64,000 nt of DNA from positions 133,359-197,358 of IMG/VR virus record IMGVR_UViG_3300025237_000001. One strand, 5' to 3'. Positions within the stretch are counted from its first letter, which is position 1, and the number at the start of each line of letters is the position of its first letter. The notes below the pieces were generated by a model. It was not told the DNA's origin. It made no database searches and was given only the letters and a program-made list of their open reading frames with translations. Made by a program: the position numbers and the translations under genes. This document shows positions 58,666 to 61,598 of this stretch, one piece after another. Origin of the DNA: a virus.

Positions 58666-58751
58666 GGTGGTTGTTGCAGAGCGGTCAAATGCGCTAGGTT
58701 GTGGTCCTAGTATCTGAAGAGATTTCGGGGGTTCGAATCCCCTCTTCCACC
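58666..58751 (+). tRNA. tRNA-His(GUG), atypical (long variable arm, two U.U acceptor mismatches)
   Basis: G-1/C73; CTAGG-TT-GTG-GT-CCTAG; ATCT-GAAG-AGAT variable arm. Confidence 0.7.
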
Positions 58752-58804
58752 CTTTAAAAGTTTATATACTTTTAGGTCTTATTTGTACCTTAAACAAATA
58801 ATAT

Positions 58805-58878
58805 GGTGTTAGTATTATAACGGTTAATAAGCTAGGTTGTGAACCTAGAGAATGTCGGTTCGAATCCGATTTAACACC
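58805..58878 (+). tRNA. tRNA-His(GUG)
   Basis: G-1/C73; CTAGG-TT-GTG-AA-CCTAG. Confidence 0.85.
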
Positions 58879-58886
58879 CAAGATAT

Positions 58887-58961
58887 GGTCGTGGTCAGGA
58901 TGACCCCACTTCGAAGGAGGTGAATACATGTTCGGTTAGAGTTCAAGTCTCTTTCATGACC
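58887..58961 (+). ncRNA. tRNA-like RNA with His-type G-1:C73 acceptor but no anticodon loop
   Basis: G-GTCGTGG/TCATGAC-C; CACTTC-GAAG-GAGGTG tetraloop; TTCAAGT T-loop. Confidence 0.55.
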
Positions 58962-59041
58962 CAATAATTGAGAAAAATCTCAATGTTCTTTGACATACTG
59001 AAAACAAATTATGACGTGGGCGACCAAACCCACGTCAACAC

Positions 59042-59110
59042 ACAGGTTAGGCTATGGCAGCCAAACGCTCTCCAAAAGCGTAGGATAGAGTTCGATTCTC
59101 TAAGCCTGTG
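59042..59110 (+). tRNA. tRNA-Trp(CCA), short D-arm
   Basis: ACAGGTT/AGCCTGT-G; ACGCT-CT-CCA-AA-AGCGT. Confidence 0.75.
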
Positions 59111-59170
59111 CGAAAGTGAAATGCTTTACTTTCTCGCTAAATTTGTTATATTTATATTAAATAATTAGAT

Positions 59171-59626
59171 ATGAAAATTACAAATTTAACAAAAAAAGAA
59201 ATTAATGAATTGATTAGTAACAACAATAGTATTAATCAAATATTAAAAAGTATTAATGTAAACTCTAATGGTTCTGGTGCATACAGAACATTTAGAAATC
59301 ATTGTGATAAATTAGGTGTTATATTACCTAAATATAAACACAAAAATTTTAAAATTGGTAATAAAATACCTTTAAATGAAATATTAATTGAAAATTCAAC
59401 ATATCAAAATGTTAGTAGGTTGAAAATTAGATTGATAAATGAAAATATTTTAGAATATAAATGCGTTAAATGTGGTAACGAAGGTGAGTGGATGGGTGAA
59501 GCAATTGTATTGCAATTAGACCATAAAAATGGTATTAGAAATGATAATAGGGTAGAAAATTTAAGATTTATGTGTCCTAATTGTCATAGCCAAACACCGA
59601 CTTTTAGTGGTAAAAATAAAAAATAA
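59171..59626 (+). CDS. HNH homing endonuclease
   Basis: CVKC..LQLDHKNGIRNDNRVENLRFMCPNCHSQT. Confidence 0.9.
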   Translation: MKITNLTKKEINELISNNNSINQILKSINVNSNGSGAYRTFRNHCDKLGVILPKYKHKNFKIGNKIPLNEILIENSTYQNVSRLKIRLINENILEYKCVKCGNEGEWMGEAIVLQLDHKNGIRNDNRVENLRFMCPNCHSQTPTFSGKNKK

Positions 59627-59628
59627 AT

Positions 59629-59700
59629 ACGTCTATAGTGTAATGGCTAACACGATTGGTTCCAACCCAATTAATTAGGGTTCGAATCCTTATAGGCGTG
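59629..59700 (+). tRNA. tRNA-Trp(CCA)
   Basis: ACGTCTA/TAGGCGT-G; ATTGG-TT-CCA-AC-CCAAT. Confidence 0.8.
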
Positions 59701-59705
59701 CAAAT

Positions 59706-59789
59706 TGCGGGGTAGTCAGTAGATGGAAGCTTGTGAGGCTCATAACCTCATGTCGTAAGACCCCGTGGGTTCGAGTCCCACTCCCGCTA
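59706..59789 (+). tRNA. tRNA-Met(CAU), initiator-like with long variable arm
   Basis: U1:U72 mismatch; TGAGG-CT-CAT-AA-CCTCA. Confidence 0.8.
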
Positions 59790-59790
59790 C

Positions 59791-59944
59791 AAAATCTTTG
59801 CTTGAAAATAAAGATACAACAATCTTAGCAACTGCCGAGTGCGTATTAGACTTATCAGAGTCGTGATTATGGAAGAGGATTGTCAAACGCTATGCCAAGG
59901 GAATGATAAATTAAAAATCCAACTGATATTTGGACAAAGATTTT
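59791..59944 (+). ncRNA. candidate structured ncRNA
   Basis: Perfect closing stem AAAATCTTTG/CAAAGATTTT; inner ACAATC/GATTGT. Confidence 0.55.
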
Positions 59945-59948
59945 AAAT

Positions 59949-60028
59949 ACGGAAATAGCTTATAGGTAAAGTACCACCATCGGAGGTGGAGAAGGGCATA
60001 CTAGTTGGTTCGAGTCCCCCTTTCCGTG
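59949..60028 (+). ncRNA. tRNA-like RNA (Arg-derived?) with 6-nt anticodon loop and split T-stem
   Basis: ACGGAAA/TTTCCGT; CCACC-ATCGGA-GGTGG; GGG[10 nt]GG-TTCGAGT-CCCCC. Confidence 0.55.
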
Positions 60029-60036
60029 CTAAAAAT

Positions 60037-60107
60037 TGCGATACTCGTAGGAGAAGGACTTACCCTCATAAGGTTCGTTAGGCTGGGTTCGATTCCCGCT
60101 ATCGCTA
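60037..60107 (+). tRNA. degenerate tRNA-Met(CAU), initiator-like
   Basis: TGCGATA/TATCGCT-A; ACC-CT-CAT-AA-GGT; bulged T-stem. Confidence 0.55.
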
Positions 60108-60112
60108 CAAAT

Positions 60113-60182
60113 TACGGTGATTCTCATTTAGCTAAATGGAGAGACATATTCGAATATGGTGGTTCAAATCCACACATCGTAG
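60113..60182 (+). ncRNA. tRNA-like RNA lacking an anticodon loop
   Basis: TACGGTG/CATCGTA-G; CATAT-TCGA-ATATG; GTGG-TTCAAAT-CCAC. Confidence 0.5.
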
Positions 60183-60197
60183 CTAAATTTAAAAATT

Positions 60198-60368
60198 ATG
60201 GAAAAAACAAAAATGCGAAACTTGGTAAAGTACTTAAATGATATGGGTGCTAAAGTTTCATACAACGAGAATCCAAGTCCAGAAGAGATTGAACGAATAA
60301 CAAAACTCATTCAACGAAATCGTGACAGGAAAAATGTAGCTATCCAAAAGTATAAGGATAGTAAATAA
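60198..60368 (+). CDS. small hypothetical protein (56 aa)
   Basis: MEKTKMRNLVKYLNDMGAKVSYNENPS... Confidence 0.5.
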   Translation: MEKTKMRNLVKYLNDMGAKVSYNENPSPEEIERITKLIQRNRDRKNVAIQKYKDSK

Positions 60369-60437
60369 AATAGTAACAAGCGTCATCGCTGTAAGTTGGA
60401 TAATCTAAGATTAAGTGCTTAGAGCTTAGTTACTATT
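60369..60437 (+). ncRNA. candidate small structured RNA
   Basis: Closing stem AATAGTAAC/GTTACTATT. Confidence 0.4.
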
Positions 60438-60440
60438 AAT

Positions 60441-60528
60441 GGAGAGGTGGCAGAGTGGTCGATTGCGCTGGATTTGAAACCCAGTGAACCCTTGACGGGT
60501 TCCGTGAGTTCGAATCTCACTCTCTCCG
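60441..60528 (+). tRNA. tRNA-Ser(UGA)
   Basis: GGAGAGG/TCTCTCC-G; TT-TGA-AA; long variable arm. Confidence 0.9.
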
Positions 60529-60529
60529 C

Positions 60530-60639
60530 AATAGTTAGGGACGTGGGCTTGAAGGTAGCCATCGTTTAAAGAGTAACAGAGTCAAGTTTACAATTTTATC
60601 AGACTCAATGTTTTTGGTGTTATAACACACCCAATTATT
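60530..60639 (+). ncRNA. 23S rRNA H43-H44 (uL11-binding/GTPase-associated centre) mimic
   Basis: GGACGTGGGCTTGAAGGTAGCCATCGTTTAAAGAGT[hairpin]GTGTTATAACACAC aligns to 23S 1055-1104 with compensatory changes. Confidence 0.8.
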
Positions 60640-60644
60640 AAAAA

Positions 60645-60731
60645 GGAAGAGCAAGCCAATTGGCGGTGGTCGCAGTTTTGAAAACTGTTAGGAGAGAGAG
60701 ACTCGTGTGGGTTCGATTCCCACTTCTTCCG
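60645..60731 (+). tRNA. tRNA-Ser(UGA) #2
   Basis: GGAAGAG/TTCTTCC-G; GCAGT-TT-TGA-AA-ACTGT. Confidence 0.85.
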
Positions 60732-60789
60732 CAAATATTATCGCAAGGTAATATTAAACTATGTAATAGTACGTATAAAAGCATAGTTT

Positions 60790-60860
60790 CGTGATAGAGT
60801 GTGAAGTGTAGCACGTCTCCGTACAAGGAGTTAGATGCGGTTCGATTCCGTGTATCACAA
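60790..60860 (+). ncRNA. tRNA-like RNA (Val-derived?) with 6-nt anticodon loop
   Basis: CGTGATA/TATCACA (C1:A72); CTCC-GTACAA-GGAG; TTCGATT. Confidence 0.5.
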
Positions 60861-60865
60861 CAAAT

Positions 60866-60952
60866 TGCGGGGTGGAGAAGTGGTATCTCACCTGTCTCAT
60901 AAGCACGGAGTCCCTTATAAGGTTTACGCTGGTTCGAATCCAGCTCCCGCTA
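60866..60952 (+). tRNA. tRNA-Met(CAU), initiator-like with long variable arm
   Basis: U1:U72; CT-CAT-AA; CCTT-AT-AAGG variable arm. Confidence 0.75.
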
Positions 60953-60977
60953 CTAATAATAACTAAAATCAATAATT

Positions 60978-61598
60978 ATGAAATCAATAAAACAAGATTC
61001 TTACAAGGGTACTAGAATACTTTTAGGGAATGAAAAAAGGAATTTGATTAATCAAATGATTGAAATATTAAAGGCTAACGATTATTTGGAAATACAAATC
61101 CCAATTATTCAATTAGACGATATCTTCAAAGATAAAGTTGGTACTGAAAACGACAATATGATGTTTAGGTTTAAAGATAGAGGGAATAGAAATTTATGTT
61201 TAGCCCCAGAATATACAGCGATAATTCAACGTTTGGCTAATGGTACAATGAAACAAGAAAGAGATTTAAAATTATTCTATGTTCAAGAATGTTTCAGAGG
61301 TGAAAAACCTCAAGCTGGTAGATATAGACAATTTACTCAATTAGGTGTTGAGATTATCAACCCTAAGAATTCTTATAATGCATTAAATGAAGTTCAAGAA
61401 ATTGCATGGGGTTTAACAACTCTTAGTGGTTTAAACTGTGAATTGAATAAGGATGTGAGTAGAGGGTTAGATTACTATAAAAATGGTGAAGGATTTGAAA
61501 TTTCATGTGAATCATTGGGTTCTTCAAAACAAGTTTGTGGTGGTGGAATATATGATGGTGGAGTTGGGTTTGCTATCGGTATTGATAGATTAATATAA
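60978..61598 (+). CDS. truncated histidyl-tRNA synthetase-like protein (catalytic core only)
   Basis: LAPEYTA, FRGEKPQAGRYRQFTQLGVE (motif 2), GGGIYD..GFAIGIDRL (motif 3); no anticodon-binding domain. Confidence 0.8.
   Translation: MKSIKQDSYKGTRILLGNEKRNLINQMIEILKANDYLEIQIPIIQLDDIFKDKVGTENDNMMFRFKDRGNRNLCLAPEYTAIIQRLANGTMKQERDLKLFYVQECFRGEKPQAGRYRQFTQLGVEIINPKNSYNALNEVQEIAWGLTTLSGLNCELNKDVSRGLDYYKNGEGFEISCESLGSSKQVCGGGIYDGGVGFAIGIDRLI

What the first reader, a model, noticed from the sequence alone, without database searches (positions are those of the whole stretch)
58666..61598. Anticodon-blind mini-HisRS co-located with three G-1:C73 acceptor RNAs
Seen: a 206-aa HisRS core with motifs 2 and 3 but no insertion or anticodon-binding domain; one normal tRNA-His, one with a long variable arm and U.U mismatches, and one His-acceptor RNA with a tetraloop instead of an anticodon. 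Known: G-1:C73 is the major His identity element; truncated aaRS paralogs (HisZ, EpmA) have non-canonical roles. Inference: an orthogonal charging system for non-canonical RNAs, or a protein/RNA-modifying ligase.
Basis: partly seen in the sequence, partly recalled or inferred. Interest (0 to 1): 0.7.

Follow-up and report, generated by a model that had tools for sequence, protein, structure and literature searches.

The report
Half-size phage histidyl-tRNA synthetase, odd tRNA-His genes
A giant marine phage encodes a histidyl-tRNA synthetase cut down to its 206-residue catalytic core, 2 kb downstream of three histidine-type tRNA genes (one normal, one with an extra arm, one unable to read codons). 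The enzyme belongs to a large phage-only family I found in no paper, and it probably still loads histidine by reading only the tRNA's acceptor end.

Summary
ORF 60978-61598 (+) is a 206-aa HisRS core. It has motifs 1-3 and both histidine loops, but no insertion domain and no anticodon-binding domain. Three tandem RNAs at 58666-58961 carry an encoded G-1 opposite C73: a long-variable-arm tRNA-His with two U.U mismatches, a normal tRNA-His, and a tRNA-like RNA with a 6-bp hairpin and GAAG tetraloop where the anticodon loop should be.

The enzyme is not a fragment. More than 1,800 clusters of about 205 aa exist in metagenomes, on phage contigs up to 675 kb and in cultured Sinorhizobium phage Phosso. 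They form one branch apart from full-length HisRS. Catalytic and acceptor-contact residues are kept, and one member carries an intein in the active-site motif. No separate anticodon-binding domain or HisG occurs in the relatives' full-length genome records.

Best reading (about 0.6): an anticodon-independent homodimeric HisRS that charges any G-1:C73 acceptor, whether phage or host. That makes it supplementary, not orthogonal.

Linkage to tRNA-His recurs but is loose. The extra-arm tRNA-His is conserved with compensatory changes. The anticodon-less RNA has no detectable homologue, so it may be a mimic or a decaying copy.

This scan had already noted the same enzyme family on other phage DNA. 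I class it as a new variant of a known kind.

The parts
58666..58751 (+). RNA1: tRNA-His(GTG) with a long variable arm (ATCT-GAAG-AGAT hairpin), encoded G-1 (58666) opposite C73 (58751), and U5.U68 and U6.U67 mismatches in the acceptor stem
   Evidence: ARAGORN; Rfam tRNA 42.5 bits; sequence and fold. Long-arm tRNA-His homologues in L009, L014, L016 and L027 show compensatory changes, including in the extra arm.
58805..58878 (+). RNA2: canonical 73-nt tRNA-His(GTG) with encoded G-1 (58805) and C73 (58878)
   Evidence: ARAGORN; Rfam 62.1 bits; cloverleaf fold, z = -2.35
58887..58961 (+). RNA3: tRNA-like RNA with G-1:C73, a 7-bp acceptor stem and a T arm (TTCAAGT loop). The anticodon position holds a 6-bp hairpin capped by GAAG, followed by a 14-nt single-stranded stretch. 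It cannot decode.
   Evidence: My own acceptor/T-arm scan; fold. Not called by ARAGORN or Rfam. No homologue found.
60978..61598 (+). Mini-HisRS: 206-aa class II HisRS catalytic core without insertion or anticodon-binding domains
59171..59626 (+). HNH homing-endonuclease-like ORF inserted in the tRNA array between the His RNAs and the mini-HisRS. It probably explains why they are no longer adjacent.
   Evidence: Pfam HNH at the 21.4-bit cut-off; HNH_3 at 23.4 bits, just under its 24.8 cut-off. In L027 the two tRNA-His genes abut the enzyme gene.

Best explanation
The gene encodes an active, minimal, homodimeric histidine-tRNA ligase. It activates histidine with ATP in an intact HisRS active site. 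It transfers histidine to the 3' end of any RNA with the bacterial histidine acceptor end (G-1 with its 5' phosphate, C73, CCA), reading that end with the motif-2 loop and, across the dimer, the DRGxR loop. Lacking the insertion clamp and the anticodon-binding domain, it ignores the rest of the tRNA body. It should therefore charge the phage's normal tRNA-His, its long-arm tRNA-His and the host tRNA-His alike, and also RNA3 if that RNA is made and processed. Its likely role is to keep His-tRNA charging up during infection, as part of the phage's own tRNA and translation-maintenance island. Shown here: gene integrity, family conservation, the fold, retained residues, and absence of the missing domains elsewhere. 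Inferred: catalysis, the tRNA substrate, dimerisation and the biological role.
For: (1) The family is real and selected. There are 1,863 clusters at E<1e-5, and the best 120 are mostly 203-215 aa (five are longer, 225-280 aa) at 63-71% identity. At 50% clustering, 41 proteins score at or below 1e-30, and 40 representatives of 185-235 aa were used for the tree. These separate from full-length HisRS by one branch with local support 100. (2) HisRS-specific residues are kept across 41 divergent members about as well as in 71 full-length enzymes: R107 40/41, E109 (E or D) 39/41, K/R110 34/41, Q112 35, R115 36, R117 37, Q121 40, E125 39, R162 34, Y166 32, Y167 34, GGG 29-37 of 41, Y192 35, R204 37. 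In the T. thermophilus HisRS-tRNA structure the equivalents of E109, K110, Q112, R115, R117 and the cross-subunit DRG/RGGR loop contact G-1, G1, C70-C74 and A76, while insertion-domain contacts are dispensable or minor (PMC4357726). (3) The AF2 model (pLDDT 83, pTM 0.81) matches HisRS catalytic domains (1adj, 1kmn; E about 6e-15; TMq 0.77-0.82). (4) One member carries an intein with a LAGLIDADG domain inside the LAPEY|TA histidine-binding motif. (5) Homodimer prediction scored 0.86 against a best control of 0.01. That mark was reached by 20 of 30 solved one-chain pairs and 1 of 23 single chains. Runs agree in at least 96% of contacts and partner pLDDT is at least 87. The interface uses residues 12-21, 37-46 and 63-71. 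HisRS dimers are solved, so this pass may be from memory. (6) No HGTP_anticodon domain occurs in the contig or in two genome records of about 640 kb, and there is no HisG. (7) tRNA-His abuts or lies close to the gene in four independent lineages: L027, L043, L018/L020 and cultured phage Phosso. (8) From the literature: HisRS charges minihelices and tRNA-like RNAs through G-1:C73 (PMC4357726 introduction), and engineered 119-145-residue HisRS urzymes activate histidine (PMC3060492 abstract).
Against: No biochemical data exist for any member. The residue equivalent to T. thermophilus Glu64, whose mutation abolished aminoacylation, is M in this protein and Q/M/R in the family, though Q also occurs in 16 of 71 full-length enzymes. 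The HisB arginine (GGRYD) is I here and variable in the family. An engineered E. coli catalytic-domain fragment was reported as monomeric and much less active (Augustine and Francklyn 1997, from my memory, not checked here). About half of the related loci have no tRNA within 6 kb. The protein scores below the curated hisS equivalog cut-off.
Confidence: 0.6

Rival explanations
1. Dedicated enzyme for remodelled and non-decoding His-acceptor RNAs. The domains were lost so that RNAs with extra arms or no anticodon arm, which a full-length HisRS would handle poorly, can be histidylated. The charged mimic then has a non-translational role, such as a decoy for tRNA-targeting host defences or a histidine donor.
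For: Non-canonical G-1:C73 RNAs occur near the gene in several lineages. These are the window's RNA1 and RNA3; long-arm tRNA-His in L009, L014, L016 and L027; an 87-nt tRNA-His with a hairpin in the D loop 18 nt after the gene in L018/L020; and an 84-nt G-1:C73 RNA with a 20-nt 'anticodon' loop in L014, L016 and L017. The extra arm shows compensatory changes.
Against: Full-length HisRS already depends little on the anticodon and charges minihelices (PMC4357726), so no special enzyme is needed. L043 and Phosso pair the enzyme with an ordinary tRNA-His only. RNA3 has no detectable homologue. Remodelled tRNAs for Met, Asn, Trp and Lys occur in the same arrays without matching mini-synthetases.
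Confidence: 0.15
2. Histidine ligase for a non-tRNA acceptor (a protein, a carrier or a small molecule). This would parallel EpmA, amino-acid:carrier-protein ligases or AsnA, all class II cores that lost tRNA-binding domains.
For: Loss of the anticodon-binding domain is typical of such paralogs. The catalytic site is intact.
Against: Residues that contact only the tRNA acceptor end (Q112, R115, R117, K/R110, the DRGxR loop) are conserved as in true HisRS. No partner gene is conserved next to it; the neighbours differ among the window, W01/W02 and Phosso.
Confidence: 0.1
3. A regulator that does not charge tRNA: either a HisZ-like subunit or a partner that heterodimerises with host HisRS to change its activity.
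For: HisZ is the known truncated HisRS paralog; TIGR00443 scores 92 bits. The class II dimer interface is retained.
Against: The protein scores higher on hisS than on hisZ (146.7 against 92.3 bits). There is no HisG in the contig or in three relatives' genome records. Strong conservation of the ATP-, histidine- and tRNA-contact residues would be unnecessary for a pure regulator.
Confidence: 0.1

Closest known systems
Bacterial histidyl-tRNA synthetase HisS (class IIa; E. coli 1KMM/2EL9, T. thermophilus 1ADJ/4RDX)
   Same: Class II catalytic fold, motifs 1-3, HisA (RGLDYY) and HisB (GGGxY) loops, a bacterial-type motif-2 loop (E-K/R-P-Q-x-G-R-Y-R), the DRGxR loop, and a predicted dimer interface.
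   Different: About half the size. The insertion domain (about 110 aa) is replaced by one helix, an 11-residue loop before motif 3 is deleted, and the whole anticodon-binding domain is missing. The family is essentially restricted to huge phages.
HisZ (ATP phosphoribosyltransferase regulatory subunit)
   Same: A HisRS paralog with no role in tRNA anticodon recognition; it shares the core fold.
   Different: HisZ is 280-430 aa by its NCBIfam model lengths, works with short HisG, and by my recollection (not checked here) has lost aminoacylation residues. This protein keeps those residues, and no HisG is encoded.
Engineered Ncat HisRS fragment and HisRS urzymes (PMC3060492)
   Same: HisRS reduced to its catalytic core, and reported to retain histidine activation.
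   Different: Those are laboratory constructs of 119-145 or about 320 residues. This is a natural, widely conserved 200-215-aa protein that also removes the insertion domain but keeps motif 3 and both histidine loops.
Class II cores that lost tRNA-binding domains for other acceptors (EpmA/PoxA, amino-acid:carrier-protein ligases, AsnA)
   Same: A stand-alone class II catalytic core without an anticodon-binding domain.
   Different: Those families changed their acceptor-binding surface. Here the tRNA acceptor-end contact residues are retained.

Membership tests
Histidyl-tRNA synthetase (HisS) | Class II catalytic fold with motifs 1, 2 and 3 | tested here: met
   Pfam PF13393 at 3.7e-22 and PF00587 at 1.6e-10; AF2 model matches HisRS structures with TMq 0.77-0.82.
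Histidyl-tRNA synthetase (HisS) | Histidine-specific loops HisA (RGLDYY) and HisB (GGGRYD), and the histidine-binding E/T of LRPEGTA | tested here: met
   RGLDYY at 162-167, GGGIYD at 188-193 and LAPEYTA at 75-81 are conserved in the family. The HisB Arg is variable here, and it is R in only 31 of 71 full-length enzymes.
Histidyl-tRNA synthetase (HisS) | Motif-2 loop and cross-subunit loop residues that contact G-1, C73-C74 and A76 | tested here: met
   E109, K110, Q112, R115, R117 and D67-R68-G69..R71 are conserved. Their roles are taken from the 4RDX paper.
Histidyl-tRNA synthetase (HisS) | C-terminal class IIa anticodon-binding domain (HGTP_anticodon) | tested here: not met
   The protein ends in motif 3. 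There is no PF03129 in the 197-kb contig or in W01 and W02. Phosso has one, inside a 665-aa frame of another synthetase.
Histidyl-tRNA synthetase (HisS) | Helical insertion domain between motif 2 and HisA | tested here: not met
   Query 128-149 spans E. coli 134-246. The model has a single helix at 132-150.
Histidyl-tRNA synthetase (HisS) | Score above the curated equivalog cut-off (TIGR00442) | tested here: not met
   146.7 bits against a 286.75 cut-off, as expected for a half-length protein.
Histidyl-tRNA synthetase (HisS) | Histidine activation and tRNA-His aminoacylation activity | not testable with these tools
   Needs ATP-PPi exchange and aminoacylation assays.
HisZ | Score above the TIGR00443 cut-off, and a HisG(short) partner | tested here: not met
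   92.3 bits against a 271.65 cut-off. No PF01634 in G000, W01, W02 or W03.
tRNA-His (for RNA1, RNA2, RNA3) | G-1 opposite C73 on a 7-bp acceptor stem | tested here: met
   All three RNAs have it. RNA1 has two U.U mismatches in the stem.
tRNA-His (for RNA1, RNA2, RNA3) | 7-nt anticodon loop with GUG | tested here: inconclusive
   Met for RNA1 and RNA2. Not met for RNA3, which has a 4-nt GAAG loop on a 6-bp stem and cannot form a 7-nt loop symmetrically.

The most novel reading that the evidence does not exclude
The mini-HisRS co-evolved with a set of remodelled and non-decoding G-1:C73 RNAs. It exists to histidylate RNA bodies that a full-length HisRS handles poorly. A histidine-charged, anticodon-less tRNA mimic such as RNA3 then acts outside decoding, for example as a decoy for host tRNA-targeting defences or as a histidine donor.
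Probability: 0.12. Interest if true: 0.85.

Novelty: new variant of a known kind. Interest (0 to 1): 0.55.

Why it matters
If it is active, this is a natural HisRS of about 205 residues, among the smallest class II synthetases I know of, working without either tRNA-clamping domain. That would give a natural test case for the 'urzyme' view of how synthetases began. It would also offer a compact, anticodon-blind scaffold for genetic-code engineering. It shows which parts of the charging machinery huge phages choose to carry. The family is abundant (more than 1,800 clusters), databases label it plainly 'histidyl-tRNA synthetase', and I found no paper noting its truncation. A cultured host-phage pair (Sinorhizobium phage Phosso) makes it testable. 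The neighbouring extra-arm and anticodon-less His-type RNAs add to growing evidence that phage tRNA arrays hold selected, non-textbook tRNA forms.

Tried and rejected
- Split enzyme with a separately encoded anticodon-binding domain: rejected. No PF03129 in the contig or in two genome records of about 640 kb.
- ORF truncated by stop-codon recoding: rejected. The window has two CUA suppressor tRNAs, but the stop is TAA and the homologues end at the same place.
- HisZ role: rejected on score, retained catalytic residues and absence of HisG.
- Informative domain fusions among longer family members: none found except an intein.
- Homologues of RNA3: nhmmer against all fetched loci found nothing, and a hairpin-plus-T-loop pattern scan of IMG/VR gave 0 matches.
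- Independent strains of this phage, to look for compensatory changes in RNA3: the only other contigs with the identical protein come from the same sample.
- Promoter and terminator scan: counts are no higher than in shuffles; only one terminator-like hairpin at 58610-58635 before the array.
- Literature searches for a truncated phage HisRS or long-arm phage tRNAs: nothing specific found.
- Rewired or pseudoknotted tRNA reading of RNA3, suggested by earlier scan notes: I could find no complementary segments around the hairpin by eye.
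Full report
**Where the window lies.** The window is the last 64 kb of a 197-kb IMG/VR viral contig that CheckV rates at about 56% complete. It carries a tmRNA, two CUA suppressor tRNAs and a dense tRNA array from 58.6 to 63.7 kb.

**The protein.**
- ORF 60978-61598 (+) encodes 206 aa with an ATG start and a TAA stop.
- It matches Pfam tRNA-synt_His (3.7e-22) and the class II core family.
- In NCBIfam it scores higher on hisS (146.7 bits) than on hisZ (92.3 bits). Both scores are below their cut-offs, as expected for a half-length protein.
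- Against E. coli HisRS it aligns in two blocks, 29-128 to 31-134 and 149-196 to 246-292. The insertion domain of about 110 residues is therefore replaced by about 20 residues.
- A profile alignment shows a further 11-residue deletion before motif 3. The chain stops right after GFAIGIDRL.
- The AlphaFold2 model (pLDDT 83, pTM 0.81) has one helix at 132-150 where the insertion domain would be. Foldseek ranks HisRS catalytic domains first (E about 6e-15, TMq 0.77-0.82).

**It is a family, not a broken gene.**
- A word-indexed search found 1,863 clusters at E<1e-5. The best 120 are mostly 203-215 aa at 63-71% identity, on contigs up to 285 kb.
- An exhaustive search of 50%-identity representatives found 41 proteins at or below 1e-30. 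Full-length HisRS of about 420 aa starts only around 1e-28.
- In a tree of 41 short and 40 full-length representatives, one branch with local support 100 separates the two groups.
- GenBank holds homologues of 210 and 211 aa in two uncultured phages of 642 and 635 kb, and one of 196 aa in the cultured 469-kb Sinorhizobium phage Phosso. The Phosso gene is annotated simply as histidyl-tRNA synthetase.
- IMG/VR gave 37 loci, on contigs up to 675 kb.
- Among one genome for each of 185,579 prokaryotic species, only four MAG contigs from unrelated phyla carry it. That pattern suggests mis-binned phage DNA.

**Is it likely to be active, and on what?**
- Across the 41 divergent members, the residues that define HisRS chemistry are kept about as well as in 71 full-length enzymes. 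These include the motif-2 and motif-3 arginines, the E and T of the histidine pocket, RGLDYY, GGG-x-Y, Q121 and E125.
- Residues that touch only the tRNA acceptor end are kept as well. In the T. thermophilus HisRS-tRNA-His structure, G-1 and its phosphate are held by Arg115 and Arg122. C70-C72 are held by Gln117 and Lys118, C74 by Arg120 and A76 by Glu114. G-1 is also contacted across the dimer by the DRG/RGGR loop. Insertion-domain contacts are dispensable or minor (PMC4357726).
- The equivalents here are K110, R117, Q112, R115, E109 and D67-R68-G69..R71. They are invariant among close relatives and largely conserved in the wider family.
- One family member has an intein with a LAGLIDADG domain inserted exactly in LAPEY|TA.
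- A homodimer prediction scored 0.86 against a best control of 0.01. That mark was reached by 20 of 30 solved one-chain pairs and 1 of 23 single chains. Runs agree in at least 96% of contacts, and partner pLDDT is at least 87. The interface uses the N-terminal strand, motif 1 and the DRGxR region. HisRS dimers are solved, so this may reflect memory of known structures.
- One caution: the equivalent of T. thermophilus Glu64, reported as essential, is M here and Q/M/R in the family. Q also occurs in 16 of 71 full-length enzymes.

**The missing domains are not supplied elsewhere.** No HGTP_anticodon domain occurs in the 197-kb contig or in the two genome records of about 640 kb. Phosso has one, inside a 665-aa synthetase of another kind. 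No HisG is encoded in any of the four records. That, together with the retained catalytic residues, argues against a HisZ-like role.

**The RNAs.**
- All three are present as described.
- RNA1 (58666-58751) is a tRNA-His(GUG) with a 4-bp, GAAG-capped extra arm and tandem U.U mismatches at 5:68 and 6:67.
- RNA2 (58805-58878) is canonical.
- RNA3 (58887-58961) has a perfect 7-bp acceptor stem, G-1:C73 and a T arm. Where the anticodon arm should be, it has a 6-bp helix closed by GAAG, then 14 unpaired bases. Neither ARAGORN nor Rfam accepts it, even at E<=10.
- Long-arm tRNA-His recurs in L009, L014, L016 and L027. In an alignment of the five sequences, 7 of 19 predicted pairs show compensatory changes, two of them in the extra arm. 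RNA1 is therefore a selected design, not decay.
- I found no homologue of RNA3 in the fetched loci or in IMG/VR. The only other contigs from this phage come from the same sample. Its conservation is therefore untested.
- RNA3 is not unique in kind. The same array holds another tRNA-like RNA sealed by a UCGA tetraloop (60113-60183, G73, no G-1). It also holds two with 6-nt anticodon loops.
- Relatives L014, L016 and L017 carry an 84-nt G-1:C73 RNA with a 20-nt 'anticodon' loop.

**Linkage.**
- In L027 a long-arm tRNA-His and a second tRNA-His (A73) end 12 nt before the enzyme gene.
- In L043 a tRNA-His ends 17 nt before the gene.
- In L018 and L020 an 87-nt tRNA-His with a hairpin in its D loop starts 18 nt after the gene.
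- In Phosso a tRNA-His lies 276 nt upstream. In the two phages of about 640 kb it lies 2.6 and 5.6 kb upstream.
- In other loci the nearest tRNA is Arg, Thr, Cys, Trp or Met, and 19 of the 37 IMG/VR loci have no tRNA within 6 kb.
- I read this as a recurrent but loose association. It is consistent with co-expression in a translation island, and with the window's array having been loosened by insertions such as the HNH ORF at 59171-59626.
- In the phages of about 640 kb, two RNA-ligase genes flank the enzyme. This again points to tRNA maintenance.

**Interpretation.**
- The most likely reading (about 0.6) is an anticodon-independent, homodimeric HisRS that charges any G-1:C73 acceptor.
- The phage RNAs use the ordinary bacterial identity set and the motif-2 loop is of the bacterial type. 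I therefore expect cross-charging with the host system, so 'orthogonal' is not supported.
- Full-length HisRS is itself only weakly dependent on the anticodon and charges minihelices and tRNA-like structures (PMC4357726 introduction). The non-canonical RNAs therefore do not strictly need a special enzyme.
- The more novel idea is that domain loss is an adaptation to remodelled or non-decoding His-acceptor RNAs. It remains possible (about 0.12-0.15).
- A non-tRNA acceptor or a purely regulatory role each get about 0.1.

**Comparison and novelty.**
- The closest known entities are bacterial HisS, HisZ, the engineered Ncat fragment and the HisRS urzymes (PMC3060492).
- The protein fails two structural membership features of HisS (the insertion and anticodon-binding domains) and the equivalog cut-off. 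It meets all the catalytic-core features.
- I found no paper describing the truncation.
- Earlier notes of this scan had flagged the same family on other phage DNA and reached the same reading. They had also noted long-arm and anticodon-sealed His-type RNAs. I treated these as leads and re-derived the points above independently.
- The finding is a new variant of a known kind. The family is of moderate to high interest. The particular claim of a dedicated orthogonal system in this window is weaker.

Noticed in passing
window 60113-60183 (+): A second tRNA-like RNA with a sealed anticodon arm: a 5-bp stem with a UCGA tetraloop. It has a good acceptor stem, D arm and T arm, a G73 discriminator and no G-1. 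ARAGORN and Rfam do not call it.
   Followed up: partly
window 59949-60029, 60790-60861 and 60037-60108 (+): Two tRNA-like genes with 6-nt anticodon loops (AUCGGA and GUACAA), and an uncalled 71-nt tRNA-like gene with a CAU anticodon loop. The array is arranged as isoacceptor sets, each with one canonical and one or more remodelled copies (His, Trp, Met, Asn).
   Followed up: partly
L027:5915-5988; compare window 58667-58751: A second tRNA-His(GUG) in a 482-kb phage contig has U1-A72, A73 and an encoded CCA. It has the same tandem U.U mismatches at 5:68 and 6:67 as the window's RNA1. L002 also pairs a C73 tRNA-His with an A73 one.
   Followed up: no
L014:12367-12450, L016:11302-11385, L017:5402-5485: A conserved 84-nt RNA with G-1:C73, a canonical D arm and T arm, but a 5-bp stem enclosing a 20-nt loop at the anticodon position. 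It sits in a tRNA array about 5-6 kb from a mini-HisRS gene.
   Followed up: partly
L050:1282-2022 (LR745206.1) and L052:1267-2019 (phage Phosso): A second core-only class II synthetase of 246-250 aa. Its best match is glycine-tRNA ligase (NF003211, 1.2e-15), and it too has no anticodon-binding domain. It was not found in the window's 197-kb contig.
   Followed up: partly
L001:3331-3996 and 4878-5591 (LR756502.1); the same layout in L002: Two RNA-ligase genes (PF09414) flank the mini-HisRS, together with a 90-aa ORF of unknown function that overlaps its stop codon. This suggests a tRNA-repair and charging module in the phages of about 640 kb. No RNA ligase occurs in the window's contig.
   Followed up: partly
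protein P0122 (564 aa, metagenomic): A mini-HisRS interrupted by an intein with a LAGLIDADG domain, inserted in the LAPEY|TA histidine-binding motif.
   Followed up: yes
window 59171-59626 and 62580-63350 (+): An HNH-type and a GIY-YIG/NUMOD3-type homing-endonuclease-like ORF embedded in the tRNA array. The second overlaps the tRNA-like gene at 62582-62662.
   Followed up: no
window array, and L009, L014, L016: Multiple copies of tRNAs with the GUN (queuosine-family) anticodons recur in these arrays: His and Asn here; His, Asn, Tyr and Asp in the relatives. These are the targets of colicin E5-type anticodon nucleases (from my memory), which is a possible reason for the duplicates.
   Followed up: no
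window 58610-58642 (+): A terminator-like hairpin (11 pairs) followed by a T run, just upstream of the first tRNA-His. It marks the start of the array as a separate transcription unit.
   Followed up: no
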